IMG/VR virus record: IMGVR_UViG_3300045988_114702
Reading direction: 5' to 3' (one strand)
DNA: 64,000 bases
Origin: a virus
Part shown: positions 11,288 to 54,644 of the stretch, one piece after another
Numbering within the stretch: position 1 is the first letter of the stretch
How the letters are laid out: each line of letters starts with the position of its first letter
Program-made: the position numbers and the translations under genes
Notes under the pieces: generated by a model
What the model was told of the DNA's origin: nothing
What the model saw: the letters and a program-made list of their open reading frames with translations, nothing else
Databases searched by the model: none

Positions 11288-11299
11288 ATTGTCCTCCTA

Positions 11300-25357: not shown

Positions 25358-26470
25358 ATGCCCTGCTATAAAGACGAAAAAACGGGAACTTGGTATTGCC
25401 AGTTTCGATATACTGATTTCACCGGAGCGCAGAAGCAGAAGCGCAAGCGCGGCTTCAAAACCCGCCGCGAAGCGCAGGAGTGGGAGCGGGAATTTCATCT
25501 GCAGAAAGCCAAAAGCTGTGATATGACACTTGCCAGCTTTGTGGAGTTATACTTCAACGACCGGGAGCATCATGTCCGTGGCACCACAATGGACACTAAG
25601 CGAAATATTTTTGACACCAAAATTGTTCCGCTTCTCGGAAACCGGAAAATGAACGAAATCACAGCCCTGGACATTCGAGACTGGCAACAGCGGGTCAAGG
25701 AGATGGGCGAAGCCACTGGTCTGCCTTATGCGGAAACGTATCTCTATACCATTCATGCACAGTTGACTGCCCTCTTTAACTATGCCCAGACATTCTACGG
25801 TCTGCAATTCAATCCGTGCGATGCAGCCGGCTACATGGGGTCCTCTATCGCCGGTGAAATGCTTATCATCACAAAAGACCAGTACGAGATTTTACGAAAA
25901 GAATTTCGCAATGAGGCCTATCTTCTGGCATTTGATATTCTATTCTGGACAGGATGCCGTGAAGGTGAAATGTTGGCGCTGCTGCCGAAAGACCTGACTG
26001 ATGATGACCAGTTGCGAATCTATAAAACTTATCACCGGAAAAAGGGTCAAGACATTCTCGGCCCCACCAAGAATAGCAAAAAGGGCGGCAACAGAAATGT
26101 GCCTATCCCCCATTGGCTGGCAGAAGAATTTCGTACCTACTGTTCTAAACTATACGGCCTGACCCCAGATGACCGGGTATTTTACATGACCTGTACAGCC
26201 CTCAACAAAGAATTGACCCGCTGCACCCAGATAACCTATCTGCCGGACATTCGTGTCCACGATCTTCGGCACAGCCACGTTTCTCTCTGTATCGAACTTG
26301 GGTACTCTATTGTTCTGGTGGCCAAGCGGATAGGGGATACTGTTCCTGTTGTCATGCGGACATACGCCCATCTGTACCCCAATAAGCAGCAGGAACTCGT
26401 GTCAAGGCTGGAAACTCTCAGTACTTCCTCTTCCTCCAAGGATGAATCCGATTTGATGCCACTCGTCTAA
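25358..26470 (+). CDS. int: tyrosine site-specific integrase with N-terminal arm-binding domain
   Basis: HDLRHSHVSL...RTYAHLY catalytic region. The N-terminus is MPCYKDEKTGTWYCQFRYTD. Confidence 0.9.
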   Translation: MPCYKDEKTGTWYCQFRYTDFTGAQKQKRKRGFKTRREAQEWEREFHLQKAKSCDMTLASFVELYFNDREHHVRGTTMDTKRNIFDTKIVPLLGNRKMNEITALDIRDWQQRVKEMGEATGLPYAETYLYTIHAQLTALFNYAQTFYGLQFNPCDAAGYMGSSIAGEMLIITKDQYEILRKEFRNEAYLLAFDILFWTGCREGEMLALLPKDLTDDDQLRIYKTYHRKKGQDILGPTKNSKKGGNRNVPIPHWLAEEFRTYCSKLYGLTPDDRVFYMTCTALNKELTRCTQITYLPDIRVHDLRHSHVSLCIELGYSIVLVAKRIGDTVPVVMRTYAHLYPNKQQELVSRLETLSTSSSSKDESDLMPLV

Positions 26471-28208: not shown

Positions 28209-28934
28209 TCAAAGCTGCTTAGCGAGAGCCGCCTTTGTCTTTGCTCCAGCAATGCCATCAACTGTCAGACCGTGAGCACTCTGGAACTCCTTGACTGTTT
28301 TTTCGGTATTCGCCCCGAAGATACCGTCCTTGTCGATTCCCAGTGCACCCTGCAGCACCGAATTGTACAAGCGCTGTGGGAAGCCGCTGGTGGACTTTTT
28401 CAGGTTGCTGGGTCCGAAAAGTTCTGCGACCCAGTTGGACGTGTATGCAGTAGAGCCTGCCACATTCGGGATGCCTGCGTACTGATGCACCGATACATAC
28501 CCAGTAGAAATATCGTTGATGCGAATTTCCCAATGCAGGTGACTTCCGGTGCTGTGGCCGGTGCTGCCCTCAACACCAATCAGATCTCCCGGTTTCAGCT
28601 TCTGCCCGACGGCCACGTTGATTTTGGACAGATGCCCAAAATACATATAGTAGGCAGTGCTGCCGATACGAACCACAACACGCTGGCCAAAACCTTTCTT
28701 CGGAAGCGTTGCACACTCCCATCCAGCACGAATAACCGTACCGTAAACCGGGCAATAGATGCTTTTGTCTCCAATGCCCACGAGATCATATCCTTGGTGA
28801 TATGTACCGTTTGCTCGCAGGTTTCGGTATGCCTGCGACACTCTGAAAGTGCCCTTATACGGAGAAATCAAAAAATCCACCTCTATTCCAAACAAAAAAG
28901 CCGCGCTGACCATCAGCACGGCTTCTCTCAACAC
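28209..28934 (-). CDS. endolysin: M23 peptidase plus C-terminal peptidoglycan-binding domain
   Basis: HQGYDL...GSTGHSTGSHLHWEI and FQSAHGLTVDGIAGAKTKAAL. The start is uncertain. Confidence 0.85.
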   Translation of the reverse strand: MLREAVLMVSAAFLFGIEVDFLISPYKGTFRVSQAYRNLRANGTYHQGYDLVGIGDKSIYCPVYGTVIRAGWECATLPKKGFGQRVVVRIGSTAYYMYFGHLSKINVAVGQKLKPGDLIGVEGSTGHSTGSHLHWEIRINDISTGYVSVHQYAGIPNVAGSTAYTSNWVAELFGPSNLKKSTSGFPQRLYNSVLQGALGIDKDGIFGANTEKTVKEFQSAHGLTVDGIAGAKTKAALAKQL

Positions 28935-29240: not shown

Positions 29241-29572
29241 TACAGCTCACCTCCCATAAACAGAGTTTCCAGCACGCTCACACGCTCTTCCAGAGAGGGC
29301 GCAGCTTCATCAGCGGTCGTCCATGCTTCTGCATAGACCCACCAATCATCAGCCGCCGCCGTGATGCTTTCCACGGTTTCCTCTGCATAATCGGAACCCA
29401 ACTTGCAAAGAGCCGTGGTGCACTCCCACGAAGTACCGCCCTGCTCTCCTTCGGGAGCCTCGGTTCGTACCTCATGAGCGTCCTTACGCAGGTACAGCCA
29501 AGCCGTACCGTCCGGCAGTTTTTCCAGCGTTACCGCCTGCGGATTATGGTCAAGGTTCTCGGTAAAAATCAT
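29240..29572 (-). CDS. hypothetical acidic protein
   Basis: 110-aa ORF with an ATGA overlap with the RT stop. Confidence 0.6.
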   Translation of the reverse strand: MIFTENLDHNPQAVTLEKLPDGTAWLYLRKDAHEVRTEAPEGEQGGTSWECTTALCKLGSDYAEETVESITAAADDWWVYAEAWTTADEAAPSLEERVSVLETLFMGGEL

Positions 29573-30846
29573 GCTGCTATCCTCACTTTCTTCATTGCAT
29601 TTCTTTGTGTCGTTACGCGGATTGCTACTTTTGCGGCCGTGAACAGCTTTTTCTGTTTTAGGGCTTCGCTGATTGCACGAGATTTTGTCCAGTCAAAATA
29701 GCCGTTATAGCTGACCAGCTTGTATGACCGCCAGACCGGCACATATCCATTTCGTGAAACATCAGCCTTGGCTCGAATGTACTGCCGCCGAGCCCTCAGA
29801 AAAATTCTGGGGCGTATCGTGGTGTAGGTACGGTGCATCACATAGCCAGCCATATCCAAACCCGGGCATCCTTTTGCCGCTCCCGTTAGGTGTCTGCGTT
29901 GATGCTCTTCAGCGGCGCTAAGAAAGTCCACACGAACCCACTCGTTTTTTATTGTCAATCCCAGTTCGGTCAGCGCCCACTTAGTCAATTTTCGGGCTGC
30001 ACTCTGTATGTCAGCCCATCGTCGGCCAAACAAAACAAGGTCATCCATATAGCTACCGCTGCGGATCACGAATCGCGTGGATGCTCCACGGCGAATCTTT
30101 GCATAACTCATGACCTTGACCAGCATATAGCTGGCAACAAGGTTAAAAAGCCACGCTTCAAGATAGCCGCCGATAAGCAATCCCTCACCCGGAGCCATTG
30201 CTAAAAGACATTTGACAACAGCCAGAAGCCATGTTGCTCCCGGGATTTCTTTCTGCAGGATCTTCATCACAAGTTCCTGTTTTGTGTGGGCGTATGCCCC
30301 CTGCACATCCAGCTTTATTGCATACTGTATGCCAAGACTTTTTCTGCGAAGCCAACGCTCGACTTGACGCTTCAAAGCGATTTGTCCCTTGCCGGGAATA
30401 CTGGCAAATTGATACGGCAACAGTTTTGCCTGAAGCAACGGGCGAAGTCCAAGTACCGCCAAATGCCCAAAAGCTTGGTGCATTGGACAGCAGTTAGACA
30501 GTTCCCGCCGTTTCATGCTGATTCCATCAATTCTGTAGAACACGCTCACAGGGTCAAGATCAAGGTCGTCTGTTTCTCCGTCCAACAAATCTTCTATCCG
30601 TTGCTCCATTTCAAGAGCAATCCCATTTACGGCTTCTAAACGCGGGTTCCAGTCGTTTACGCGGGCGGCGCTCGATAGTTGTGCACGGCTTACACCTCCA
30701 TATTTTTCCACCGTAGCGAGGTAATCCCGGCGGAACCATTTCTTATCAAAAGCTTCAAGGACAGCACGCTCGCACATTTCATGATTGAGCGACAAGTACC
30801 TCTTTGTTTTCATATCCTTAAAGCCTCCAAACTTGCTGATGTTCAA
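29569..30846 (-). CDS. reverse transcriptase (DGR-type)
   Basis: SYMDDLVLFG (YxDD) motif, with fingers/palm layout. It is adjacent to the TR/VR pair. Confidence 0.85.
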   Translation of the reverse strand: MNISKFGGFKDMKTKRYLSLNHEMCERAVLEAFDKKWFRRDYLATVEKYGGVSRAQLSSAARVNDWNPRLEAVNGIALEMEQRIEDLLDGETDDLDLDPVSVFYRIDGISMKRRELSNCCPMHQAFGHLAVLGLRPLLQAKLLPYQFASIPGKGQIALKRQVERWLRRKSLGIQYAIKLDVQGAYAHTKQELVMKILQKEIPGATWLLAVVKCLLAMAPGEGLLIGGYLEAWLFNLVASYMLVKVMSYAKIRRGASTRFVIRSGSYMDDLVLFGRRWADIQSAARKLTKWALTELGLTIKNEWVRVDFLSAAEEHQRRHLTGAAKGCPGLDMAGYVMHRTYTTIRPRIFLRARRQYIRAKADVSRNGYVPVWRSYKLVSYNGYFDWTKSRAISEALKQKKLFTAAKVAIRVTTQRNAMKKVRIAA

Positions 30847-31056
30847 CGGATTTCGGTTGCCGTTTCAGGCCTTAAATCAGGCAAAACGGATTTCTACTAC
30901 TCACCGCCACGCAGTCCCAAAAACTGCGGCCACGCTCTCACCAATGCGTCCGTATATCTCGAAACGCTCAGCTACATGGTGTCGGTATAACATGATCTTA
31001 GTGGTCAAGCCACAGGCGCAATGAAACGCTTATGCCCTTTTGAGGGCTATTTATCA

Positions 31057-31206
31057 TCAGCATTCCGGGGCACGCCGTTCCAGCTCGAGTTCGCCGGGGA
31101 ATTGTTGCCATTCGCGCAAGGCAGGCCGCAGTTAGCACCGTCATTCAGGTTGCCACCGCGCCACGGGGCGTACAGACCCGCCGAACTGGGCGAAATAAAC
31201 GCAGCC
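31057..31206 (-). repeat. DGR template repeat (TR)
   Basis: Aligns to 31352-31501 at a constant offset of 295. The sense strand is rich in AAC codons. Confidence 0.8.
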
Positions 31207-31329
31207 ACACGCCGCTTCATTGCTCCATAAAATAATCGGCTTGCGCCGATGGTAAACCATCGGCGCAAGCTGGGAAACGTGAACAGGGATTAGGGGGTTA
31301 CACCCCCTCTATGTGCCTACGGCACATAT

Positions 31330-33057
31330 TCACCCTCTCTTTTTGCCCGAGCCAGCAAGCCGGGGCACGCCGCACCAGCCCGAGAACGCCGGGGAAACGC
31401 CGCCAAACGCGCAAGGCAGGCCGCAGCAAGCACCGCCATACAGGTAGCCACCGCACCAAGGGGCGCACAGACCCGCCGAACCGGGCGAAACAAACGCAGC
31501 CCGTACATAGGTGGAACCGCTGCCATTGAACTTTTCATACATCATGGCTTCCGTACCCAACTTGCCCAGCTTACGGATATAGTGCCACGACCAAGTCGCC
31601 TTGTCGTTCAGGTCGAAGGAGCCGGTCTGGGCATAGTCCGAGGAGATAGAACCAACCTGCTTCTCACCGCTCTTGCAGGAGAACACGTCATAGTGCCAGT
31701 GGTCATCGTCCACGATGCTGGCTTTCCACAGAGGGTCAAGCTGTTCCGTATAAGCGCCGATCTGCATCTCGATGCCGGCCACACGGTACGGATATTTTCC
31801 GTTCGTCAGATTACCCCGACATCCATCGCTATGTCCCTGCACGCCCTCTGTTGTGCCGGACTCCCACGGCATAGTAGATACCAGCATCGTGGTCGTAGTG
31901 TCGATAGGAGAATCCAACTCAAGGTTCAGAGCCACATACTCGGTCTCGCTCACGGTCACATTGGTAATGCTGGAAATCTTGGCCCAGTTGAAAATATTGT
32001 GATTATAGTCCGTGTTGCGGTCCGTTCCCGTATTCTCGCCACGCTCACCCATGCAAACAGCAGAGCCCACAAGGAAATTTGCCCCCTGCGCTTTCGTCAC
32101 GAGCACTCGCTTTACTCCCGTTTCCGCCACAGCAGGGCTGTACTGGTAATTATAGACAGTGCAGCCCTCCAGCTTGCCGCTGTTGCTCAGCGTCCAATGG
32201 CGCAGCCGCCACTGCGCCAGAACATACTGCTGGTCGCAGTCAGTCCACAGGGCATCATAAGCGGTGATTTTACGAGCCAGAGGGATAGCAGCGTTGGCGC
32301 TTGTCCACGGCATCGGGGGCAGTCCAGCACCGCTGGTCATTCCACCCTTGGAATTTTTGCCGCCAAGGAAAGCCGGGTGCCATGTCAGCCAGCGGCGACT
32401 CTTATCAGGGGCCACATCGCCAGCCATAGGATCATAGCCGCCGCCCTCGAAGGTGCGGAAAGAGTTATACAGGTATGCGCCATCCTCCCACTCCTTCAGC
32501 ATCAAGGACAGAGCGAAGCAGTAAACGGGTGCGGTTTCGCCGGAAAGATCAAACCCGGTTTCACCCTCAACTGCCAGCACGTTCATCGTGCCATCTTCCA
32601 AGGACAGCGCATTGGCGCGAATGTACCATGTGAAAGGATCCTCTTCCGACCAGTCTGCGGTTTCCGGGCTGGTGTCAGTCAGAAGCGGAGCCGCTTCACG
32701 CCCGTCTGCCAGATCATCCAGCGGGGTGCCGGTGTAATCACCACTCACATCATCACTGTAGAAGCGAACGGTGTAGGTTTTGCTGCGAGCGCTCTCTGCG
32801 AGCATTTTCGCAAAGCGTTCCAGGCGCTGATACTTCGTCACGCCATCACCGGCAGACAGCGGCCACCAGCTCCAGAAGATTTCTGTGGTATTTTTGCCAT
32901 CCAGCAGACCGCGGAATGTTGCATCCACGAATTCTGCGCCGGCAGTACCGGCAGCAATGCCTGCCAAAATGTCATTTTGGCGTTTCATCTGAGCGGCCAG
33001 TTCCAGACCGGTTTCATCGCTCATAGGATGATTGATAAGTTCCCATGTGTCACCCAT
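31330..33057 (-). CDS. DGR target protein (probable receptor-binding tail fibre protein with C-terminal variable region)
   Basis: 575-aa ORF whose last 50 or so codons are the VR. It sits in the tail-fibre block. Confidence 0.8.
   Translation of the reverse strand: MGDTWELINHPMSDETGLELAAQMKRQNDILAGIAAGTAGAEFVDATFRGLLDGKNTTEIFWSWWPLSAGDGVTKYQRLERFAKMLAESARSKTYTVRFYSDDVSGDYTGTPLDDLADGREAAPLLTDTSPETADWSEEDPFTWYIRANALSLEDGTMNVLAVEGETGFDLSGETAPVYCFALSLMLKEWEDGAYLYNSFRTFEGGGYDPMAGDVAPDKSRRWLTWHPAFLGGKNSKGGMTSGAGLPPMPWTSANAAIPLARKITAYDALWTDCDQQYVLAQWRLRHWTLSNSGKLEGCTVYNYQYSPAVAETGVKRVLVTKAQGANFLVGSAVCMGERGENTGTDRNTDYNHNIFNWAKISSITNVTVSETEYVALNLELDSPIDTTTTMLVSTMPWESGTTEGVQGHSDGCRGNLTNGKYPYRVAGIEMQIGAYTEQLDPLWKASIVDDDHWHYDVFSCKSGEKQVGSISSDYAQTGSFDLNDKATWSWHYIRKLGKLGTEAMMYEKFNGSGSTYVRAAFVSPGSAGLCAPWCGGYLYGGACCGLPCAFGGVSPAFSGWCGVPRLAGSGKKRG
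31352..31501 (-). repeat. DGR variable repeat (VR) at the 3' end of the target gene
   Basis: 24 mismatches to the TR, 22 of them at TR sense-strand adenines. Confidence 0.8.
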
Positions 33058-33072
33058 TTCTTATACCCCCTT

Positions 33073-33336
33073 TTAGGTGCTTTTCTTGATGAAAAACGAC
33101 AGTCGGCCGCTCTCGTCCGGGCCAAGTGCATAGCTTGCAGAAGCAGCGCTTGCCGCAGCCTGCTGGGCCGCAGCTGTCGTCTTGTTCAACAGATCCTTCG
33201 ATGTCTCGGCAGCGGCCTTGCTGGTCTCTGCACTATCTTTCGCCGCATCCGCAACAGCTTTTGTCTGACTATACAGTTCATCCAATTTTGCTGCTGATTT
33301 CCTGCGAGCGATTGCGTAGGTCAAAATATCAATCAT
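33073..33336 (-). CDS. Ala-rich coiled-coil protein with GPD..GR.SFF C-terminal motif
   Basis: 87-aa ORF. The C-terminus YALGPDESGRLSFFIKKST parallels that of 33603..34190. Confidence 0.5.
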   Translation of the reverse strand: MIDILTYAIARRKSAAKLDELYSQTKAVADAAKDSAETSKAAAETSKDLLNKTTAAAQQAAASAASASYALGPDESGRLSFFIKKST

Positions 33337-33348
33337 ACGCCACCATCC

Positions 33349-33525
33349 TTACATCGGGTAGAACTTCCCGGTAGAATCGGCTATGTAGATATTGCCTGTG
33401 TGGATAACCAGTGCTTGCGCCCCCATCGGTGCAGATTTGATATTCTGCAGGTCTGCTTCATCGTCGCAGTAGTACACCGTGGCCGGCTGGGCTGCGGTGC
33501 CATACTGCTGCATAACTTTGAACAT
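33349..33525 (-). CDS. small hypothetical protein
   Basis: ATG at 33525 follows AAAGGAG. Confidence 0.5.
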   Translation of the reverse strand: MFKVMQQYGTAAQPATVYYCDDEADLQNIKSAPMGAQALVIHTGNIYIADSTGKFYPM

Positions 33526-33602
33526 AGAAACTCCTTTCCAGATTATAGCCATGCAACATCTGTAAATCTGATTTTTGTTAGAAAATCACGGATTCCGTGA
33601 TT

Positions 33603-34190
33603 TTAACTGCTCCTGCGAACAAAAAAGGAGAAACGGCCATCGGCATCCGGTCCGAATGCAAAATTGATAGATGCCGCCGATCCCGCCACCTGATTGGCAA
33701 TGTCCGCCGTCCGGTTCATGTAGTTCAGCGCATTTCCTTCGGATGTTCGAGCGTCTGCCGCGCTATCCCTCGATGCACGCTCGCTTGCCGCCGCAGAAGA
33801 CGCATTTTCCGTGGAGATTCTTTCGGACTTACTGGCCGCGATTGCGCTGGCATTCGCGGCAGATGCACTCTGCGCTGCGGCCTGCTCTGAAGCGCTGGTA
33901 TTGGCTACCAGCCGCTTGATTTCTTCGACGTTTTTCAGAATTGCATCTGCCACATCATCGCGGATTGCGTAGAGCAACCGCCATTCATCAGCTCCATCCA
34001 AAACGTACTGTGCTGCCATTTCGATGCAGTATGCTTGACTGGCCGGCTTTGCGAATTTCTTGACCTTGTACGATGAACCTGTGCTTTTGCTCGTAGGCAG
34101 TCCTTTGACATCTTCCATCGTGTCCACATAGAATGAGTACCACGCTTCGGTCTCAGTTTCCAGCAGGGTACTCGCAATCAGAATCGCCAT
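33603..34190 (-). CDS. fibre-like Ala/Ser-rich coiled-coil protein
   Basis: 195-aa ORF with C-terminus FAFGPDADGRFSFFVRRSS. Confidence 0.6.
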   Translation of the reverse strand: MAILIASTLLETETEAWYSFYVDTMEDVKGLPTSKSTGSSYKVKKFAKPASQAYCIEMAAQYVLDGADEWRLLYAIRDDVADAILKNVEEIKRLVANTSASEQAAAQSASAANASAIAASKSERISTENASSAAASERASRDSAADARTSEGNALNYMNRTADIANQVAGSAASINFAFGPDADGRFSFFVRRSS

Positions 34191-34201
34191 ACATTCTCCT
34201 T

Positions 34202-35596
34202 TCAGCCGATTCCATTTTCATCAGCGAATTTCAGAAGGGCTGCTCTTTCGATTTTAAGAAACTCTTCATAGTCGGCAGCGGGAAGTATCTCGAGAGCATC
34301 ATCTTTTGGCAGTTCAGCCTTGATGGGAAGGCAATCCCCTATTTCGATGTACCGCCGGTTGTGATAGTATGCGCTTGCAAGAACGCGGGCTTTATGAACC
34401 CAGCAGATGCCCGTAAAGCGTTTATTGGCTGTGCCGTACATCTCATAGTTCAAACCGGAACACCAGCCACAGCCGGCAGATACAGGGCAGTCAATACACT
34501 TCTGCTCAGACTGTGAGGTGAGGGTAATCGCATCGAGTTCTGCTTTAGCCTTGCGTTGGGAATCAGTGGTATACAGACCATCATAGACGCTGCCGAAGCG
34601 AACTTTCTTCGACTTTTCCTCGCCAATACTAATGGGTGCGTATCGAATGCAGGGGTACGCAGATCCATCAGGAGCAAACGATAGCATAGAGCCCGTGCCA
34701 CCACAAAAGTTGTGATTGTCTTTAGCTCTCCCCCCTAAGAGGCTGTCAAAAATTGTGACCAGCACATCCAGCCTATTGTTCACAATGTAGTTAGCCACAA
34801 TTTTCAATTGGCTGTACAAAACATAGCCATCTGACGGATTATAAAGAGGCTCATAAGCATAGTTACAGGCAATGCTGTCGCATCCCTCATTCAGCATCAT
34901 TATGATGCTATCTGCGATATACTTGAACGAACCGGGAACAAAAGTCATTTTCGTTGAACCGTTCCAGCCGTACTTTTTACTGTCCTGAAACGCTTTCCAC
35001 GCCTTTGCGAAGCTTCCGTTTCCATGTTCATCAAGTCGGTACATATCATGAAGCTCCTGCACGCCGTCAATACTGACGGTAACGGACATCATTTCATGAT
35101 ATTTCTCAAAAAGGTGCTGCGCTTCAGGACTGAACCACAGCTGACCGTTTGTGGCAAACGAAATTCTGGTAAACGGCGCAAGAGGGATACTGCGTTTCCA
35201 GCATTGCTCAAACCAGTAATCGCAGATGTATTCAATCAAGGGGGCTTCCAGCAAAGGCTCTCCCCCGATAAAGTCAAGAACAACGGCTTTTGTGTCTTGG
35301 TTGACGAAGTCAGAGGTGTTCTGCTTATACAGATCCAGCAGATAATCAACGATTCTTTTGCCGGTTTCGGGAGTCATACTCTCCGCTCCTTTGTGATGCT
35401 CGTAGCAATACGAACACCTGAGATTGCACCCGCTGGTCACCTGAAATGTAACATTGCGACAAGCACTTCGCGTTTCAGGTAAATCACGGCAGTACAGTCT
35501 CTGGACAGAGTTTCCGTAATCCTCAAACCGTTTGCTTTTCAAACAACTGCACCTCCTTCCGTCCAAAGTCAAATTGGTATCCGTTGAAAGGTTCAC
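34202..35596 (-). CDS. radical SAM / SPASM-domain peptide-modifying enzyme (CXXX-repeat-target maturase type)
   Basis: SGCNLRCSYCYEHH (CX3CX2C). C-terminal CGGTGSMLSFAPDGSAYPC ... CIDCPVSAGCGWC auxiliary-cluster motifs. An alternative TTG start lies at 35542, after GGAGGTG. Confidence 0.85.
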   Translation of the reverse strand: MNLSTDTNLTLDGRRCSCLKSKRFEDYGNSVQRLYCRDLPETRSACRNVTFQVTSGCNLRCSYCYEHHKGAESMTPETGKRIVDYLLDLYKQNTSDFVNQDTKAVVLDFIGGEPLLEAPLIEYICDYWFEQCWKRSIPLAPFTRISFATNGQLWFSPEAQHLFEKYHEMMSVTVSIDGVQELHDMYRLDEHGNGSFAKAWKAFQDSKKYGWNGSTKMTFVPGSFKYIADSIIMMLNEGCDSIACNYAYEPLYNPSDGYVLYSQLKIVANYIVNNRLDVLVTIFDSLLGGRAKDNHNFCGGTGSMLSFAPDGSAYPCIRYAPISIGEEKSKKVRFGSVYDGLYTTDSQRKAKAELDAITLTSQSEQKCIDCPVSAGCGWCSGLNYEMYGTANKRFTGICWVHKARVLASAYYHNRRYIEIGDCLPIKAELPKDDALEILPAADYEEFLKIERAALLKFADENGIG

Positions 35597-35825
35597 TGCT
35601 CAAATCGATGTGGTTTTTCAGTACCGCGTTCTGCGCCATCTGCAGTTTCATGTGGGCCATACGGCACAGTTCCGCATAGTGCATGATAATTTCCTTTGTA
35701 TCGGAGTTTGCTTTGGCGTTCAGTTGGCGGTTGAGTACTGCCATAATTTTTTCGTATGAATCAACCTCATAAAATGCCCGTTCCACAGTCTCGCTTTCGA
35801 CTTGGGACAGTTCAATAATCTTCAT
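35523..35825 (-). CDS. small helical accessory protein of the CXXX/rSAM cassette
   Basis: 100-aa ORF that overlaps the rSAM gene start. Confidence 0.55.
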   Translation of the reverse strand: MKIIELSQVESETVERAFYEVDSYEKIMAVLNRQLNAKANSDTKEIIMHYAELCRMAHMKLQMAQNAVLKNHIDLSSEPFNGYQFDFGRKEVQLFEKQTV

Positions 35826-35839
35826 GTTGGCATCCTTTC

Positions 35840-36424
35840 TCAGCAGGCATCAATCTTGGGAAGTCGCCCCACGATCTGAGTATACCGGGCCCGAATTTTG
35901 TTCATGGCTCCCATTGCAGAAGTAAGTGCCCGAAGATTTTCATTGAAGTTCAGCCGAAGGTAATCGGTTAAAGTACGAAGAACGTACCACATCGCAAAGA
36001 TATCTGCATCCTCAGAGCAGGCATATTCCCCGGCACTCCGCAGTGTATCTCCACATTTCAGCTGCTTAGTGACAGGATTTGCGGAAAAATTGAACGTCCG
36101 TGCTGCCAAACCAAGGGCCAGAAGTTTTTTGCGCTCTTCGGACGCGCTCTCAATTTTGCAAGCCTCCAGCGCCGAATCGATTACAGTCAAACAGTAGATA
36201 AACCAGTTATCAAAATCCGTTGCATCAAGAGCGCAAAGGGCTCCAACATAACTAAGGCACCAAAGCAGCTTGTCTTCTCCATTGGGTGTTGCAGAAAGAA
36301 GCACATCCCAGTCCTCTGTATTTACCGGTTCCTGCTGAAGTAGTTTGATAAGCGGCAGATTGCGGAGGTATGATGCATCAACATCAGCATCAGCATTTTT
36401 TGCATAACGAACAGTCATTTCCAT
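35840..36424 (-). CDS. hypothetical protein of the CXXX/rSAM cassette
   Basis: 194-aa ORF, 12-14 nt from both neighbours. Confidence 0.6.
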   Translation of the reverse strand: MEMTVRYAKNADADVDASYLRNLPLIKLLQQEPVNTEDWDVLLSATPNGEDKLLWCLSYVGALCALDATDFDNWFIYCLTVIDSALEACKIESASEERKKLLALGLAARTFNFSANPVTKQLKCGDTLRSAGEYACSEDADIFAMWYVLRTLTDYLRLNFNENLRALTSAMGAMNKIRARYTQIVGRLPKIDAC

Positions 36425-36436
36425 ATCATTCTCCTA

Positions 36437-37537
36437 TTACCACAAAAGTCCTCCAGAACAATTTCCTCCACAACTCCCGCTGCAGCTACCACTACAGCTA
36501 CCACTGCAGGAGCCAGAGCAACCGTCGCAACTGGTATCGCAACTGCTCGTACAGCGCTCGCCGCAGTGCGAATTGCATGAACCCTTGCAACTATTAGAAC
36601 AGCCCGATTCACAGTTCAAAAGGCAACCTGAACCCGTGCAGGTTTCCTGACAGTCACTAGCGCAATAGCTTTTGCAGTTCGTGGTACAGTTACTTGCACA
36701 GTCGTCTGCGCAATTTGCGCTACAGCTTCCCTCACAAGTACTTGAACATCCATCACAACTACCAGAACATCCTCCCTTGCAGGATGTCTTGCAATTGTTA
36801 GTGCAGTTATCCGCACACGTCTTTGTACAGCTTCCTGTGCAACTACCAGTACAAGTGCCTACGCACGTTCCAGCGCATGTACCTGTGCAACCGCCAGCAC
36901 AACTTCCCCCGCAGTCATTGGCACACGTCTTCGTACAGGTTCCTGTGCAGGTGCCGGTACAGCTGCCAGTACAGGTGCCTGTACAGGTGCTGGTACAGTC
37001 GTTGGCGCACGACTTAGTGCAGGAACCCGTGCAAGTCCCTGTGCAAGTGCTCACACAAGAGCCGGTGCATGAGCCGGTGCAATCATTGGCACAGCTTTTT
37101 GTGCACGAGCCGGTACAGCCTCCCGTACATGAGCCGGTACAGCTGGAACAGGCTGAATAGCAACCCGTAGTGCAGAGCCCCGAGCAAGCCCCGCCGCAGC
37201 CGCTGGATGTTGCAGTTTCAGAAATCGCGCTCAATTGGCTAAGCAGTGCAGCCGCCCGGGTGAGCACATCTGCAGCGACCTTGGAGCCGTTTTCCGGTGT
37301 GATAGCGCTTCCGGTAATCGCCGAGATAGGCTGTGTAATTTTCTGGATGTGCTCATTGGTAATTTGCCTACCGGCCGCAGGGACGACAGAAAAAGAACTG
37401 ATATAAGCCGCCATGCTTCCAACGCTCTGGCCCTGTCCTGTCCCTTCGCTTTTTCCGCGACGATTAAGTTCAGCGTCCAGCTGTTTTTTAAGTTCTGTGT
37501 AGTCGGCCGAGTAAACCTTTGTGCTTCTTTGAGCCAT
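36437..37537 (-). CDS. CXXX-repeat Cys-rich protein (114-aa N-domain plus about 253-aa C-x-x-x array)
   Basis: 63 Cys residues, nearly all spaced i/i+4. The ATG at 37537 forms a TGATG overlap with the tail-fibre stop. Confidence 0.8.
   Translation of the reverse strand: MAQRSTKVYSADYTELKKQLDAELNRRGKSEGTGQGQSVGSMAAYISSFSVVPAAGRQITNEHIQKITQPISAITGSAITPENGSKVAADVLTRAAALLSQLSAISETATSSGCGGACSGLCTTGCYSACSSCTGSCTGGCTGSCTKSCANDCTGSCTGSCVSTCTGTCTGSCTKSCANDCTSTCTGTCTGSCTGTCTGTCTKTCANDCGGSCAGGCTGTCAGTCVGTCTGSCTGSCTKTCADNCTNNCKTSCKGGCSGSCDGCSSTCEGSCSANCADDCASNCTTNCKSYCASDCQETCTGSGCLLNCESGCSNSCKGSCNSHCGERCTSSCDTSCDGCSGSCSGSCSGSCSGSCGGNCSGGLLW
36440..37198 (-). repeat. 12-nt-periodic coding repeat (CXXX array)
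   Basis: 58 perfect 4-residue units, three 3-residue units and one 5-residue unit. It generates spurious ORFs in other frames on both strands. Confidence 0.85.
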
Positions 37538-38568
37538 CACACACCACCTACTCTCACCTTCACAAGCCGCAGATCCGTGCGGTTATCACCCTCACAGGCG
37601 TATCCCACAATTTTGTTCGCCGGGTACGATTCGCACGAGCCGACCGCGCGCCCAACGCCGGGCGCGCTGGACAGAACGATGTAATCGCCCGTATGGACAG
37701 GTCCAACCACTTTCGTGTGAACACGTCCTGCTAAGGACACCGGAATAAAATCGGGCAGGTTTTCCTCAAGGAAATCCTGCCCTTCAACCACTTTATTTCC
37801 ACCAATGAGCATAGCGTACTCATCCGTGTGGATGCCTGCGATACGGCTAGATAGGTTCGTGGCCTTGATATACCGTTCCATCTGGCTCCCAGTATCCAGA
37901 GCGATAATATCACCGGGTTCGGTCTGCTCGCCACGCGGCATGAGCTCCGCATAGTCGTTGTAGACCGCATCGTAGACACGCTGCGCGGAAATATCACCTG
38001 ACACCGACAAAGACTTAAAGTGTGCATCACCTGCGGATGTCACATAATGTACCGTGCCGTTTGCAAAATACACCGTTCCGGTGAACGTGCCGCCCACATT
38101 GCGCATTGCGCCAAGGTTTTTGCAGGCATCAGCGGAGGTGCCAGAACCTGTACCACCGCGTTCAATCGGAAGGTTCCCGCTTGTAATCTGGCTTGCAGAA
38201 TGTTCATGCGTAGACGGTGCAAAAGCATTCGCGTGTTTACCATCAACCGTATCGGCATCACAGCCTTCCATCAGCCCGTATGCAGCCAGCAGGGCCACAA
38301 TCTGTTTCGCCGTAAAATCGCTCTTAGGCAACGCGCTGTTTGCCGTTCCCTTAACGGTAGACAGGTCGGAAATGGCCTGATTCAGCAGGGCACTCAAAAT
38401 ATATGTAACCATGTTGAACTGCTGGCTTGTCGGCTTTCCGTTCAAACCGCCGACAATAGAAGCCCAGCCGCCTTTCCAATCCTCCAACGAAATGTCTTGC
38501 TTCACGCCAGACACAGAAAACGCCGCAGTTGCATAATCTTCAAGCGCTCCTGCACGACCTTCTGCCAT
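37537..38568 (-). CDS. tail fibre protein
   Basis: 343 aa, positioned after the baseplate genes. The C-terminal region PVSLAGRVHTKVVGPVHTGDYIV is typical of fibre/appendage C-domains. Confidence 0.65.
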   Translation of the reverse strand: MAEGRAGALEDYATAAFSVSGVKQDISLEDWKGGWASIVGGLNGKPTSQQFNMVTYILSALLNQAISDLSTVKGTANSALPKSDFTAKQIVALLAAYGLMEGCDADTVDGKHANAFAPSTHEHSASQITSGNLPIERGGTGSGTSADACKNLGAMRNVGGTFTGTVYFANGTVHYVTSAGDAHFKSLSVSGDISAQRVYDAVYNDYAELMPRGEQTEPGDIIALDTGSQMERYIKATNLSSRIAGIHTDEYAMLIGGNKVVEGQDFLEENLPDFIPVSLAGRVHTKVVGPVHTGDYIVLSSAPGVGRAVGSCESYPANKIVGYACEGDNRTDLRLVKVRVGGV

Positions 38569-46851: not shown

Positions 46852-47895
46852 TCAGTAATTCAGTGTGCCGCCAATTTTTGCGGCGATCAGTGCGCCCGCC
46901 AGCTGCGCAGTCCACGTCACACCGGTAAGGCGGCGGCTCTTGCGGGTTGCGGCATCCAGGTCGGCCGCACGCGGCACCGTGACAGTATAGGCGCGGGATG
47001 CTTCTCCATCATCAGAGGAAGCATCCTGCACAATGCCACCAGCACGCACGCCCTCTTCCAGGGCATCAATAACAGCATTCTGTACCAGCGCGATGCCCTG
47101 GTCGGTGTAGGGCACCTTGGGCAGTCCTAGGAGCAGGTTCAGCACCTTGGACTGAATCTCGGTCTTCAGCCAGTCACGGAAGCGGATGGTGTCAATCCAT
47201 TCGCCGCCGCTCACCTTGCCGCCCTGCACCATGGCCTTGCTGCCAACGGTCGTATAGTACGAAATATTGCGTGCTTCCAGGCTTGCAATATCCGTAGTGG
47301 ACAGACCCTGCGCAGACACCATGGAAAGCGACTTGAAGCACCACTGCTCACTGCCCGGGTCATAGGAAAGGAACCGGGCAGCGTAGGCGCAGTTCACACA
47401 GTCATTCTCTGCGGTCGCATGAATCACTGCGGTGCGCAGCATAGCATCCGATACCGGAGAGGACGAAATACCAGTAGTTTCGCAGACGCAGAGTTTTTCA
47501 TTTGCTTCTGTCCAGTCCGCGATGCTCTGGTAAAAGTCCTCCTTGATGCCCGCCGGGCAGATGCAGTACCAGCCCGGCATACCAATGGCCCGGTCAAGGG
47601 TCACATCCACCTTTTCGGTGGAACCGCTGGACAACTTCTGCACCGCAATCATGACTGCAGGCGGCTTCGGCGACTGGCCAAACACCTTGCTGGCCGCGAT
47701 GTACACAGGATCATCAGACGTAAAGCCGGCCCCTTTGAGGTCCTGCAGACTGGCATAGCCCGCCACATCAGGCGTAACACGACCGCCGGGCGTTTTCGGC
47801 AGCGGGCCCATGATAAGAATGGTATCGTAGCCGCCATCGATGGACATCGCCTCAGAAATCTGGATATTGACCTCAACGATTTTGTCGATATTCAC
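46852..47895 (-). CDS. tail sheath protein (DUF3383-like)
   Basis: 347 aa, with N-terminus MNIDKIVEVNIQISEAMSIDGGYDTILIMGP. Confidence 0.7.
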   Translation of the reverse strand: MNIDKIVEVNIQISEAMSIDGGYDTILIMGPLPKTPGGRVTPDVAGYASLQDLKGAGFTSDDPVYIAASKVFGQSPKPPAVMIAVQKLSSGSTEKVDVTLDRAIGMPGWYCICPAGIKEDFYQSIADWTEANEKLCVCETTGISSSPVSDAMLRTAVIHATAENDCVNCAYAARFLSYDPGSEQWCFKSLSMVSAQGLSTTDIASLEARNISYYTTVGSKAMVQGGKVSGGEWIDTIRFRDWLKTEIQSKVLNLLLGLPKVPYTDQGIALVQNAVIDALEEGVRAGGIVQDASSDDGEASRAYTVTVPRAADLDAATRKSRRLTGVTWTAQLAGALIAAKIGGTLNY

Positions 47896-50001: not shown

Positions 50002-51066
50002 TTACAGGCCATAGACCAGGCAGGCAGACAGAGGATAAGGAATAGCCATGCCTGCATCGCGCCCTTCGCAGTTGATGACAATTTCCAGATTACGATCCTG
50101 CGGCGCGTGCTGCAGGAATGCCATAGGCACATCATGGTACATCTTTTCAGCGTCCTTGGTGTACAGCAGGCCGATGTTCTTACCCGTGGTGTTGTAGTCC
50201 GTATTGCCCTTGGACAGTTCGCCAGCAACCTCCCAGTTGGTAATCTGGGGAGTATGGTCCTTGATGTAGGACAGCACAGATTCACCGGTGCCATCAATGC
50301 GGCGCAGGTTCAGGCTGGTGTAGAGGTCATTGGGCATGACCCAGGAATCCGGGTGCTCCACACTCTGGGTCAGGGTGTCAATGTAGTTCAGAATGCCGGC
50401 AATGTCTGCGGCGATTTCATCGGCCGTTTTGCTTGCCCAGTCAGACTTGCCGCTGGCACCGTTCTGGAGGGTGTAGATGGGGATATTATTGTCGGAGGAC
50501 AGCACGCCGATGATGCCGGTCTTTGCATCGCCGTTCCAGATCAGGTGATTCACCTTCACATCATACACGCGGCGGGCGGCTTCTGCACGGGCGGAGTCCA
50601 GAGACTTCATGATGCCCAGAACGGCATTGCGGCGGCAGGCGCGCAGTTCCTGCACATTGTAACCGTAGCTGTCACCGATGTTGACGATTTCAGCACGATG
50701 GGGAGTGCCCTTCACATCAACGCGGGGCAGGTCTGAAGCATAGTTGGCGATGATGTCAGCAAAGCCCACAGGCTCATAGGAGTAGTACTCGATGTAGGCC
50801 GCGCCCTCATCGGTATCGCTGGTCTGCGGGAAGATTTTCAGGCCAGACAGTTCCGGAAACTCCTTGTCATACGCCTTGGTCTTAACGTGAGCCAGCTGCT
50901 TGGCAAAGAAGATGCCTGCATTGTCAGCGGCATCCAGACGAAGCGCTGCGCCAGGGAAAGGATTCTTATACGCCTGATTGATAAGCGAAGAGCATTTGCC
51001 GGACAGGGCAACGCGGTCTTCCTCGCTGTAGCCATTGGCGGGGTCAAAGGGATTAAACTTAGCCAT
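50002..51066 (-). CDS. major capsid protein (DUF2184-like)
   Basis: 354 aa, positioned after the scaffold and cement genes. Confidence 0.8.
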   Translation of the reverse strand: MAKFNPFDPANGYSEEDRVALSGKCSSLINQAYKNPFPGAALRLDAADNAGIFFAKQLAHVKTKAYDKEFPELSGLKIFPQTSDTDEGAAYIEYYSYEPVGFADIIANYASDLPRVDVKGTPHRAEIVNIGDSYGYNVQELRACRRNAVLGIMKSLDSARAEAARRVYDVKVNHLIWNGDAKTGIIGVLSSDNNIPIYTLQNGASGKSDWASKTADEIAADIAGILNYIDTLTQSVEHPDSWVMPNDLYTSLNLRRIDGTGESVLSYIKDHTPQITNWEVAGELSKGNTDYNTTGKNIGLLYTKDAEKMYHDVPMAFLQHAPQDRNLEIVINCEGRDAGMAIPYPLSACLVYGL

Positions 51067-54145: not shown

Positions 54146-54222
54146 TGGTGCTGGAGGTGGGGATTGAACCCACAGCCTGACGGTTACAAATCGCCTGCTC
54201 TGTCCTATTGAGCTACACCAGC
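54146..54222 (-). tRNA. tRNA-Thr (anticodon UGU), CCA encoded
   Basis: Hand-folded cloverleaf: acceptor GCTGGTG, T-arm GTGGG-TTCAATC-CCCAC, anticodon loop TTTGTAA. One acceptor mismatch and one anticodon-stem mismatch. Confidence 0.8.
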
Positions 54223-54229
54223 GTAAAAG

Positions 54230-54302
54230 CCGAGGGTACCGGGCTCGAACCGGCGGTCTGGGAGTCAAAGGCCCATGCCTTATCCAACTTGGCCAACCCT
54301 CG
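54230..54302 (-). tRNA. tRNA-Gln (anticodon UUG), no encoded CCA
   Basis: Acceptor CGAGGGT/ACCCTCG, D-region GCCAAGTTGGATAAGGC, loop CTTTGAC, T-arm GCCGG-TTCGAGC-CCGGT. Confidence 0.8.
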
Positions 54303-54305
54303 ATA

Positions 54306-54381
54306 TGGAGCAGTCAACGGGGCTTGAACCCGCGGCATCCTGCTTGGAGGGCAGGCGCTCTACCAACTGAGCTATGACTGC
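54306..54381 (-). tRNA. tRNA-Gly (anticodon UCC), CCA encoded
   Basis: Acceptor GCAGTCA/TGACTGC, anticodon stem CCTGC/GCAGG with loop CCTCCAA, T-arm GCGGG-TTCAAGC-CCCGT. Confidence 0.9.
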
Positions 54382-54446: not shown

Positions 54447-54644
54447 TTAGTCAAACACCTTTTTGCCTTCGGCAAACTTCTTTTTAGCTTCGTTCAGGCT
54501 GATGCGGTTATAACCGCCGCGATAATCAGGATCCGCTCTCTGCACGCCATCATTTACCCAGCCGCACACGGGGCATTCCTCAAAATCGTTGTCTTCATCA
54601 AAGCTATGCTGCCCACATACCGGGCAGAGGATTTTCTCAGTCAT
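54447..54644 (-). CDS. CPCC-family cysteine-rich small protein
   Basis: MTEKILCPVCGQHSFDEDNDFEECPVCGWVNDGVQ. The ATG at 54644 overlaps the portal stop (ATGACTGA). Confidence 0.65.
   Translation of the reverse strand: MTEKILCPVCGQHSFDEDNDFEECPVCGWVNDGVQRADPDYRGGYNRISLNEAKKKFAEGKKVFD

What the first reader, a model, noticed from the sequence alone, without database searches (positions are those of the whole stretch)
34202..37540. RiPP-style cassette inside the tail-fibre operon: 63-Cys CXXX-repeat protein plus dedicated radical SAM/SPASM enzyme
What the sequence shows:
- A 366-aa ORF is translationally coupled (TGATG) to the tail-fibre gene. Its last roughly 253 residues are an almost uninterrupted C-x-x-x array.
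- By my count the array has 63 Cys: 58 exact 4-residue units, three CXX units and one CXXXX unit. The x positions are mostly T/G/S, with K, N, D, A and V.
- The array is followed, with gaps of 12-14 nt or overlaps, by a 194-aa ORF, a 100-aa helical ORF and a 464-aa enzyme.
- The enzyme carries CNLRCSYC (CX3CX2C) and C-terminal SPASM-type motifs (CGGTGSMLSFAPDGSAYPC ... CIDCPVSAGCGWC).

Established background:
- rSAM/SPASM enzymes install thioether or other modifications on Cys-containing peptides (sactipeptides, ranthipeptides, QhpD, anSME).
- Curated annotation names exist for a radical SAM peptide maturase of the CXXX-repeat target family and for a partner CXXX repeat peptide modification system protein. 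I know of no determined chemistry or function for them, and the targets are normally short peptides.

Inference: here the substrate seems to be a structural protein of the host-range block. The 114-aa N-domain could act as leader and/or virion-docking module. The repeat could be converted into a serially cross-linked rod that is protease-resistant and redox-insensitive, or into a metal/FeS-binding filament on the tail. Post-translational radical chemistry on a phage fibre would be new biology.
Basis: partly seen in the sequence, partly recalled or inferred. Interest (0 to 1): 0.9.

Follow-up and report, generated by a model that had tools for sequence, protein, structure and literature searches.

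The report
Phage tail-fibre Cys-repeat protein with radical-SAM maturase
A temperate gut phage, and more than a hundred relatives, carry next to the tail-fibre gene a protein with up to 64 cysteines spaced every fourth residue plus a dedicated radical-SAM enzyme, which suggests (but does not prove) that a phage tail component is chemically cross-linked by radical chemistry.

Summary
The ORF at 36437-37540(-) has 63 Cys: 58 CXXX units, three CXX units and one CXXXX unit. It overlaps the stop codon of a tail-fibre gene and is followed by a 194-aa ORF, a 100-aa ORF and a radical-SAM/SPASM enzyme.

The enzyme's best match is the CXXX-repeat maturase model TIGR04115 (295 bits, below the cut-off of 350, full length). 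PapB scores 136 bits and anaerobic sulfatase maturase 59. All ten cluster cysteines are invariant.

The order fibre, CXXX protein, p194, p100, rSAM recurs in about 77 of the 80 IMG/VR loci examined, on several unrelated phage backbones. A reciprocal search starting from the N-domain always finds the enzyme. The Cys count ranges from 13 to 64. The 110-aa three-helix N-domain and the array's head and tail stay conserved. All 58 units use different 12-mers.

p100 does not hit the partner model TIGR04116, TIGR04119 is absent, and p194 has a new all-alpha fold.

The enzyme-substrate pairing is strongly supported. Thioether chemistry and virion incorporation are inferences. I found no cultured phage with the cassette and no paper on it. 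I rate it a new phage variant of an uncharacterised system, of high interest.

The parts
37537..38568 (-). Tail-fibre gene (343 aa). Residues 99-154 resemble R-type pyocin and P2-type fibres. The C-terminal ~135 aa, starting at the YNDYAE motif, is probably a Peptidase_G2-type intramolecular chaperone domain.
   Evidence: PDB 6CL5/6CT8/6CL6 match at E ~5e-7. PHROG tail-fibre hits. 11 of 19 orthologous C-termini hit PF11962, best E 1.8e-4; the window copy itself does not. Residues ~116-343 are the part that stays conserved wherever the cassette occurs.
37199..37540 (-). N-terminal domain of the CXXX protein (residues 1-114). It is a three-helix domain with conserved motifs DYxxLKxxxxxExxRR and EHIxKIT.
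   Evidence: Length stays at 110-122 aa in 68 distinct orthologues. AlphaFold2 pLDDT is 80-90 for residues 10-110. No fold or sequence match in PDB. Only 63 representative clusters in 1.84 billion proteins; nearly all full-length ones carry a CXXX array.
36458..37198 (-). CXXX array, Cys115 to Cys361 (63 Cys). It has a conserved head (C-x3-C-[ST]GLC-x3-C-Y), a variable-number central CTG[ST]/CTK[ST]CANDC region, and a conserved irregular tail. The C-terminus is SGGLLW (36440-36457).
   Evidence: TIGR04114 repeat model 36.5 bits, cut-off 20. AlphaFold2 gives no confident fold, pLDDT below 50.
35840..36424 (-). p194, a cassette-specific all-alpha protein (8 helices) of unknown function.
   Evidence: No Pfam, NCBIfam, PHROG or PDB sequence hit. 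AlphaFold2 pLDDT 89, pTM 0.85. No PDB fold match. The only structural relatives are unnamed viral proteins A0A8S5VQP2 and A0A8S5VPE9. Syntenic in most loci.
35523..35825 (-). p100, a cassette-specific small helical protein with a conserved C-terminal FDFxRxEV motif. It has the position and size of TIGR04116, but homology is not shown.
   Evidence: No TIGR04116 hit for any of 35 members. hhalign is collinear but weak: E 0.004, probability 8%. The family extends to the distant locus L217, E 1e-5.
34202..35596 (-). Radical-SAM/SPASM enzyme. The longest ORF is 464 aa; the probable start is the TTG at 35542 (446 aa). The CX3CX2C motif lies at 35405-35428 and the SPASM cysteines lie within 34403-34705.
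   Evidence: TIGR04115 at 295 bits covering model positions 2-359 of 359; PapB 136 bits. Pfam Radical_SAM. phrog_1802. CteB (5WGG) E 2.8e-14. Ten cluster cysteines invariant in 71 sequences. Start codon analysis.
31330..34190 (-). Downstream host-range genes with no strong predicted terminator between them and the cassette, consistent with one operon: p195 (33603-34190), p67, p87 and the 575-aa DGR target (31330-33057).
   Evidence: PHROG tail-fibre hits for p195 and phrog_17147 for the 575-aa protein. No strong minus-strand terminator between 42600 and 31270. DGR TR/VR alignment.

Best explanation
This is a phage-borne variant of the uncharacterised CXXX-repeat radical-SAM maturation system. 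It is built into the tail-fibre/host-range operon of a temperate myovirus-like phage that probably infects an anaerobic gut Firmicute.

**Proposed mechanism**
- Late in infection the fibre gene and the 366-aa CXXX protein are translated together.
- The SPASM radical-SAM enzyme has no fused peptide-recognition (RRE) domain. It is therefore probably helped by p100 and/or p194.
- The enzyme engages the conserved array head (C-x3-C-SGLC-x3-C-Y) and works along the array.
- It converts the cysteines into covalent cross-links, most likely Cys-S to carbon thioethers as in its relatives PapB, CteB and QhpD.
- No protease or exporter is present. The 110-aa three-helix N-domain therefore stays attached and probably docks the cross-linked, length-variable array onto the tail fibre or baseplate, as an accessory rod or adhesin.

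**What is shown**
- The anatomy of the cassette.
- The family assignment of the enzyme and the intact cluster ligands.
- Obligate two-way co-occurrence of enzyme and CXXX protein.
- Position of the cassette in the fibre module.

**What is inferred, with my probabilities**
- Enzyme-substrate relation: about 0.9.
- Thioether chemistry: about 0.55.
- Role of p100/p194: about 0.5.
- Incorporation into the virion: about 0.55.
For: **Enzyme identity**
- Best hit is TIGR04115, full length, 295 bits. Next are PapB (136), CcpM and the SCIFF maturase; anSME scores only 59.5.
- The closest solved structure is the thioether-forming CteB, aligned from CteB residue 92 onward, so its N-terminal RRE has no counterpart here.
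- Ten Fe-S cysteines are invariant in 71 sequences.
- A distant phage relative, L217, has the same N-domain/CXXX protein next to its fibre gene. Its enzyme scores 468 bits, above the TIGR04115 cut-off.

**Substrate identity**
- The array passes the TIGR04114 repeat model.
- Its head motif is present in all 68 distinct orthologues and in the canonical Prevotella-type precursor.

**Linkage**
- The order fibre, CXXX, p194, p100, rSAM is kept in most of the ~77 IMG/VR loci that have upstream DNA. A few of the more divergent loci lack a detectable p194 or p100. rSAM identity spans 56-100%, on backbones whose baseplate genes are not homologous.
- The reciprocal scan with the N-domain finds the rSAM wherever enough downstream DNA exists.

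**Signs of a structured, selected protein**
- Non-Cys array positions are as conserved as the N-domain.
- Irregular units are conserved landmarks across orthologues.
- All 58 units are codon-scrambled.
- Length variation (13-64 Cys) is confined to the central region.

**Structural context**
- The CXXX gene overlaps the fibre stop codon.
- There is no strong terminator through to the DGR-diversified receptor-binding gene.
- There is no signal peptide, protease or transporter in the cassette.
Against: - No direct evidence places the protein in virions. No cultured phage in the collection carries the cassette; the only record is the uncultured MT835573.
- The N-domain has no detectable similarity to any known fibre, adaptor or chaperone domain.
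- No fibre-CXXX fusion protein was found among the 63 representative clusters.
- The array has no confident predicted fold.
- The chemistry of the whole TIGR04115 family is undetermined, and no paper was found.
- The enzyme is below the family cut-off, and the canonical partners TIGR04116 and TIGR04119 are not detected.
- p194 is missing in some distant relatives (L217, L085 variant), so its role is not essential to the core pair.
Confidence: 0.5

Rival explanations
1. The CXXX protein is not part of the virion. The cassette makes a modified Cys-rich product that acts inside the infected cell or is released at lysis, for example as an antimicrobial, a signalling molecule, or a metal- or redox-active protein. 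It sits in the fibre operon only for late expression.
For: The canonical relatives are non-phage systems whose precursors are exported by Tat. No known virion domain is detectable in the N-domain. The cassette has slightly lower GC than its flanks, 45-47% against 52%, as an acquired gene block might.
Against: There is no signal peptide, protease or transporter. The gene overlaps the fibre gene's stop codon. The cassette is always placed directly after a fibre gene, even in relatives with only 30-38% identity (L084, L085, L217) and on unrelated backbones. The folded 110-aa N-domain is conserved and is not leader-like.
Confidence: 0.2
2. The CXXX protein (possibly together with p194 and p100) is a tail-fibre assembly factor of the Tfa/gp38 positional class. 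It helps fold or trimerise the fibre and may or may not stay bound. The rSAM matures this chaperone.
For: In many myoviruses the gene directly downstream of the fibre gene encodes the assembly chaperone or tip adhesin (my own knowledge of P2 gpG, Mu Tfa and T4/S16 gp38). The position is conserved here.
Against: In most loci the fibre already carries its own Peptidase_G2-type intramolecular chaperone domain. There is no sequence or fold similarity to Tfa or gp38. A chaperone has no obvious need for 13-64 modified cysteines or a variable length.
Confidence: 0.12
3. The array is mainly a metal- or Fe-S-binding, or redox-active, cysteine scaffold, and the rSAM does chemistry other than thioether formation (for example Cys to formylglycine, or C-methylation).
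For: SPASM enzymes include the formylglycine-forming anSME (59.5 bits). Tat signals on canonical precursors fit export of a folded protein, whether cofactor-bearing or cross-linked. AlphaFold2 cannot fold the apo array.
Against: The nearest characterised relatives (PapB, CcpM, SCIFF/CteB, QhpD) all make Cys-derived cross-links. CX3C spacing is not a known Fe-S cluster motif (my own knowledge).
Confidence: 0.12
4. The array is a low-complexity or assembly artefact, or a non-coding repeat read in a chance frame.
For: Database copies are often fragmented at the array.
Against: The frame is conserved in 68 distinct orthologues with constant N- and C-termini. The units are codon-scrambled. The gene overlaps the fibre stop codon. 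The enzyme partner is obligate.
Confidence: 0.01

Closest known systems
CXXX-repeat peptide modification system (NCBIfam TIGR04114 target repeat, TIGR04115 rSAM, TIGR04116 small partner, TIGR04119 SPASM-only maturase), e.g. in Prevotella (locus L002)
   Same: Cys-every-fourth target array, with a shared head motif CxxxCxGLCxxxC. Adjacent rSAM/SPASM enzyme of the same lineage, lacking a fused RRE. A ~90-100-aa helical protein sits next to the enzyme.
   Different: - The window enzyme scores 295 bits, below the cut-off of 350.
- p100 is not detectably TIGR04116, and TIGR04119 is absent.
- p194 is new.
- The target has a folded 110-aa N-domain instead of a Tat signal or pro-region.
- The setting is a phage tail-fibre operon, with up to 64 Cys.
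- The canonical system's chemistry and function are themselves unknown.
PapB/PapA (freyrasin) ranthipeptide system and CteB/SCIFF (thermocellin)
   Same: SPASM radical-SAM enzymes that act on repeated Cys motifs to make serial thioether rings. They are the next-best HMM hit (PapB) and the best PDB hit (CteB).
   Different: - PapB scores only 136 bits against a cut-off of 340.
- Their targets are short leader-core peptides with CX3D/E motifs, and CteB has a fused RRE.
- Here the target is a 366-aa protein, few units contain an acidic acceptor, and no leader removal is evident.
QhpD/QhpC (quinohemoprotein amine dehydrogenase gamma-subunit cross-linking)
   Same: A precedent for an rSAM/SPASM enzyme that installs several Cys thioether cross-links in a protein which then serves as a structural subunit of a larger assembly (my own knowledge; TIGR03906 hit at 72.6 bits).
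   Different: QhpC has three cross-links in a ~80-110-aa subunit of a periplasmic enzyme, with a dedicated protease and exporter. It has no repeat array and no phage context.
Tail-fibre tip adhesins and assembly proteins encoded just downstream of fibre genes (T4/S16 gp38, P2 gpG, Mu Tfa)
   Same: Gene position directly after the fibre gene. Two-part layout: an N-terminal attachment or conserved domain plus a Gly-rich or variable C-terminal part.
   Different: No sequence or fold similarity was detected. None of them is Cys-periodic or paired with a modifying enzyme.

Membership tests
TIGR04115 radical SAM peptide maturase, CXXX-repeat target family | HMM score at or above the curated cut-off (350 bits) | tested here: not met
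   295 bits and E 1e-87. It is the best hit and covers model positions 2-359 of 359. L001 scores 300.6. The distant phage relative L217 scores 467.9, above the cut-off. The canonical L002 scores 630.
TIGR04115 radical SAM peptide maturase, CXXX-repeat target family | CX3CX2C radical-SAM cluster plus seven-Cys SPASM motif | tested here: met
   C57/61/64 and C298/316/367/370/376/379/398 are present and invariant in 71 distinct sequences.
TIGR04115 radical SAM peptide maturase, CXXX-repeat target family | Encoded next to a CXXX-repeat target | tested here: met
   The target lies 0.9 kb upstream. The pairing holds in both search directions.
TIGR04114 Cys-rich (CXXX) repeat target | Repeat HMM at or above the cut-off (20 bits); Cys period of four | tested here: met
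   36.5 bits. 58 of 62 spacings equal 4. The paralog model TIGR04117 scores 43.8, below its cut-off of 50.
TIGR04116 CXXX repeat peptide modification system protein (small partner) | HMM match of the ~90-aa neighbour | tested here: not met
   No hit at E<=10 for p100 or for any of 35 family members. The p100 profile against two true members is not significant. hhalign gives E 0.004 and probability 8%.
TIGR04119 CXXX repeat peptide maturase (SPASM-only second enzyme) | Presence in the cassette | tested here: not met
   tblastn of a true member (L002, 235 bits) against the whole window gives no hit other than a weak match to the rSAM's own SPASM region. p194 is all-alpha with no Cys motif.
RiPP (leader-core natural product) | Cleavable leader, protease and/or exporter | tested here: not met
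   No peptidase or transporter is detected by Pfam, NCBIfam or PHROG in the cassette or among neighbouring genes. The N-domain is a conserved folded domain. Cleavage itself cannot be tested in silico.
Anaerobic sulfatase-maturating enzyme (anSME) | HMM at or above the cut-off, with a cognate sulfatase | tested here: not met
   TIGR03942 scores 59.5 bits against a cut-off of 349. PDB 4K36 matches only at E 1.6e-7, against 2.8e-14 for CteB. No sulfatase is in the cassette. The host genome was not available to search.
Virion structural protein (tail-fibre component) | Detected in particles, or homologous or fused to a known virion protein | tested here: inconclusive
   Support comes only from position and synteny. 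No homology, no fusion proteins and no cultured phage. Proteomics is not possible with these tools.
Peptidase_G2 intramolecular-chaperone domain (fibre C-terminus) | Pfam PF11962 match | tested here: inconclusive
   11 of 19 orthologous C-termini hit, with best E 1.8e-4. All are below the gathering score, and the window copy does not hit.

The most novel reading that the evidence does not exclude
A phage-encoded radical-SAM enzyme covalently cross-links a dedicated virion protein. The CXXX array becomes a serially thioether-stapled module of tunable length (13-64 units) that the N-domain mounts on the tail fibre. This would be the first radical-SAM post-translational modification of a viral structural protein. 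It would also give the first function to the large, uncharacterised CXXX-repeat system family found in gut bacteria.
Probability: 0.4. Interest if true: 0.9.

Novelty: new variant of a known kind. Interest (0 to 1): 0.75.

Why it matters
**Why it would matter if true**
- Radical-SAM/SPASM maturases are known for small peptide natural products and a few enzyme subunits. None is known to build a virus particle.
- This cassette is conserved, widespread in gut phages (132 IMG/VR matches) and mobile between phage backbones.
- It is wired into the host-range block, next to a DGR-diversified receptor-binding gene.
- If the product is a cross-linked fibre component, that would be a new way for phages of strict anaerobes to make protease- and redox-resistant adsorption organelles.
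- It would also provide a genetically simple model (one substrate, one enzyme, two small helpers) for working out the unknown chemistry of the CXXX-repeat family, which is very abundant in Prevotella (7086 partner-protein hits).

**If the product is not structural**
- The cassette would still be an unusual phage-borne protein-maturation system, and still worth study.

Tried and rejected
**Searches that found nothing useful**
- Near-identical DNA in GenBank phages: no match.
- Sequence and profile searches of the N-domain, p100 and p194 against PDB, Pfam, NCBIfam and PHROGs: nothing significant.
- Fold search of the CXXX model and the p194 model against PDB: no match. BFVD returned only unnamed orthologues.
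- Scan of one representative genome per GTDB species for close rSAM relatives, to identify the host: best identity only 35-38%.
- Seven literature searches: no paper on CXXX-repeat rSAM systems or on rSAM enzymes in phage tail modules. The Faecalibacterium DGR-prophage paper PMC11792537 does not mention the cassette.

**Attempts that fell short**
- p100 against TIGR04116 was tried by hmmsearch, hhalign and member-by-member hmmscan. The result is weak or negative.
- My third protein-database search aimed to deepen the TIGR04116 profile. It returned only near-identical Prevotella sequences.
- The search for fibre-CXXX fusion proteins found none. Two giant proteins hit by the N-domain query have no CXXX array; I judged them spurious repeat matches without examining them further.
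I replaced it with a single-sequence scan.

**Ideas rejected**
- Recent DNA slippage: all units differ at the DNA level.
- Sulfatase maturase: scores are too low.

Full report
**1. The observation**

All genes in the region lie on the minus strand. The ORF at 36437-37540 encodes 367 aa from GTG, or 366 aa from the ATG at 37537. The sequence GTGATG overlaps the TGA stop of the upstream 343-aa gene.

It contains 63 cysteines between residues 115 and 361. Successive Cys spacings are 4 (58 times), 3 (3 times) and 5 (once). The x positions are mostly T/S/A, then G, then S/T.

Three ORFs follow:
- a 194-aa ORF at 35840-36424, after a 12-nt gap
- a 100-aa ORF at 35523-35825, after a 14-nt gap
- a radical-SAM ORF at 34202-35596, overlapping the 100-aa ORF

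A GGAGG lies 9 nt upstream of the TTG at 35542. This makes a 446-aa enzyme the likely product, the same length as the orthologue in L001. Public gene calls of 391 aa for this enzyme cut off the CX3CX2C motif and are wrong.

This is the only Cys array in any frame of the window. At the DNA level all 58 four-codon units are different 12-mers; even the eight CTGS units all differ. Cys codons split 33 TGC to 30 TGT. TRF sees only short 12-nt patches. The periodicity is therefore held at the protein level by selection. It is neither recent slippage nor chance.

**2. The context**

The window is a temperate, contractile-tail-type phage. Identified genes:
- terminase, 56996-58438
- portal fused to a NUDIX domain, 54637-56976
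- major capsid protein, 50002-51066
- sheath-like protein, 46852-47895
- tape measure protein and baseplate genes (J-like, Wedge1-like)
- M23 endolysin, 28209-28934
- integrase, 25358-26470 (+)

The same phage is found integrated next to bacterial genes in public assemblies. Its capsid protein is 43% identical to that of Faecalibacterium phage FP_Brigit. This suggests a strictly anaerobic Firmicute host, but the host is not established.

The 343-aa gene is a true tail fibre. Residues 99-154 match R-type pyocin fibres at E ~5e-7. The C-terminal ~135 aa, from the YNDYAE motif, is probably a Peptidase_G2-type intramolecular chaperone: 11 of 19 orthologues hit PF11962 weakly, best E 1.8e-4.

Downstream of the enzyme come small fibre-like proteins (p195, p87) and a 575-aa protein. 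The C-terminus of that protein is the variable repeat of a diversity-generating retroelement (DGR):
- TR 31058-31206
- VR 31353-31501, with mismatches at TR adenines
- RT 29569-30846

No strong minus-strand terminator lies between 42600 and 31270.

**3. The enzyme**

- Its best family is TIGR04115 (CXXX-repeat target rSAM): 295 bits over the whole model, but below the curated cut-off of 350.
- The next hits are PapB (136), CcpM, the SCIFF maturase and QhpD. Anaerobic sulfatase maturase scores 59.5.
- The best solved structure is the thioether-forming CteB (5WGG, E 2.8e-14). The alignment starts at CteB residue 92, so the phage enzyme lacks a fused RiPP-recognition domain.
- The three radical-SAM and seven SPASM cysteines are invariant in 71 distinct sequences.

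**4. The substrate**

The array passes the TIGR04114 repeat model at 36.5 bits (cut-off 20).

Comparison of 68 distinct orthologues shows a fixed layout:
- an N-domain of 110-122 aa
- an array head C-x3-C-[ST]GLC-x3-C-[YNF], present in all 68
- a central region whose unit number varies, giving 13 to 64 Cys in total
- a conserved, more polar array tail with fixed irregular units
- a short hydrophobic or aromatic C-terminus

Non-Cys positions in the array are about as conserved as the N-domain, for example 72% against 74%, and 53% against 53%.

AlphaFold2 predicts a confident three-helix N-domain (pLDDT 80-90) and no fold for the array. The model has no PDB match.

The N-domain family is small: 63 representative clusters among 1.84 billion proteins. 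Nearly all full-length members carry a CXXX array, and none is fused to a fibre.

**5. Linkage**

A scan of IMG/VR with the enzyme gave 132 relatives. In the 80 kept (56-99% identity), every locus with upstream DNA has a CXXX ORF ending about 0.9 kb before the enzyme.

The order fibre, CXXX, p194, p100, rSAM is kept in most of these loci, including on backbones whose baseplate genes are not homologous and on contigs of 30-262 kb. A few of the more divergent loci lack a detectable p194 or p100. The shared part of the fibre is its C-terminal two-thirds.

The reciprocal scan with the N-domain finds the enzyme wherever at least 1.9 kb of downstream DNA exists.

More distant relatives keep the core of a fibre gene adjacent to the CXXX-protein/rSAM pair:
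- L085: fibre, CXXX, a 145-aa protein, then the rSAM.
- L084: the rSAM comes first and the CXXX protein after it.
- L217: fibre, CXXX, a 100-aa protein, then the rSAM, whose enzyme scores 468 bits and is a bona fide TIGR04115 member.

No close relative was found among one representative genome per GTDB species. None was found in cultured phages either; the only record is the uncultured MT835573.

**6. The accessory proteins**

- p100 has no hit to the partner model TIGR04116, either alone or for any of 35 family members. Profile comparisons are collinear but weak.
- It shares size, position and a helix-helix-plus-C-terminal-strand pattern with TIGR04116. Homology is not shown.
- TIGR04119 is absent.
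- p194 is a confidently predicted all-alpha protein (pLDDT 89). It has no PDB fold relative and only unnamed viral orthologues in BFVD.

**7. Comparison with the canonical system**

L002 is labelled a phage record but looks like a Prevotella fragment. It carries the full canonical set: a 174-aa precursor with a twin-arginine (Tat) signal, TIGR04115 (630 bits), TIGR04119 and TIGR04116.

Acidobacterial precursors of 157-205 aa also have Tat signals. Canonical targets are therefore often small exported proteins, not only short peptides.

The phage version replaces the export signal and pro-region with a folded N-domain. It drops TIGR04119 and adds p194.

**8. Interpretation**

| Claim | My probability | Basis |
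|---|---|---|
| Enzyme-substrate pairing | about 0.9 | comparative evidence |
| Thioether chemistry | about 0.55 | nearest characterised relatives only |
| Virion incorporation | about 0.55 | position, stop-codon overlap with the fibre gene, joint mobility with the fibre's C-terminal part, no export or cleavage machinery, a conserved non-leader-like N-domain |

Evidence against a virion role: there is no homology to known virion domains, no fusion proteins and no proteomics.

Rival explanations:
- a non-virion modified product
- a Tfa/gp38-like assembly factor
- a metal- or redox-active scaffold with different chemistry

**9. Novelty**

Seven full-text searches found no description of CXXX-repeat rSAM systems or of rSAM enzymes in phage tail modules. 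PHROGs already groups both proteins, without a specific function (phrog_6085 and phrog_1802).

I classify it as a new variant of a known but uncharacterised kind of system. Interest is high because it is widespread, sharply defined and directly testable.

Noticed in passing
window 29569-33057 (-): A complete diversity-generating retroelement (DGR). The reverse transcriptase is at 29569-30846, the TR at 31058-31206 and the VR at 31353-31501. The VR forms the C-terminus of the 575-aa protein (phrog_17147). TR/VR mismatches fall at TR adenines. A 14-bp GC-rich hairpin at 31239-31270 lies just downstream of the VR.
   Followed up: partly
window 54637-56976 (-): The portal protein (Phage_portal_3) is fused to a C-terminal NUDIX hydrolase domain (residues 486-588).
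   Followed up: no
window 37540-37956 (-) and orthologues in L001-L085: The fibre's conserved C-terminal domain, starting at YNDYAE, weakly matches the Peptidase_G2 intramolecular-chaperone domain in 11 of 19 orthologues. The mature fibre may therefore be only ~205 aa.
   Followed up: partly
window 33603-34190 and 33073-33336 (-): p195 and p87 share an Ala/Ser-rich coiled-coil-like stretch and a C-terminal motif GPDxxGRxSFFxxxS. In some relatives (L020, L023, L024, L045) the p195 position holds a much longer fibre-like protein of 550-760 aa.
   Followed up: no
L163-L168 (public assemblies), gene at locus 11048-12223: Automatic gene calls give the rSAM as 391 aa starting at an internal Met. This removes the CX3CX2C motif, and no Pfam hit is on record for these products. 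Such miscalls may be why the cassette is invisible in annotation-based surveys.
   Followed up: partly
L002 (MT837480.1, labelled Bacteriophage sp.): This 6.8-kb record carries a full canonical CXXX system with a Tat-signal precursor, followed by tatA/tatC-like genes. It looks like a Prevotella chromosomal fragment, not a phage. The partner protein family has 7086 database hits, mostly Prevotella.
   Followed up: partly
L084 7012-8370: In the Mollicutes-binned contig the rSAM reading frame is split into two ORFs under genetic code 11. This may reflect TGA=Trp (code 4) in that phage or host.
   Followed up: no
GenBank jumbo phages (e.g. Erwinia phage vB_EamM_Asesino 141074-142252; Salmonella phage SPFM17): Erwinia, Salmonella and Cronobacter jumbo phages encode SPASM-type radical-SAM proteins 23-25% identical to this enzyme (grouped in phrog_1802). 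No substrate is named, and one is annotated AlbA-like.
   Followed up: no
database fragments P0001, P0004, P0017: Some fragments of the CXXX protein carry a precomputed Pfam accession, PF27846.1. This accession is not in the Pfam copy I could scan, so a very recent Pfam family may already cover part of this protein.
   Followed up: no
window 54146-54381 (-): Three clustered phage tRNA genes (Thr-TGT, Gln-TTG, Gly-TCC) lie between the portal gene and the head genes.
   Followed up: no
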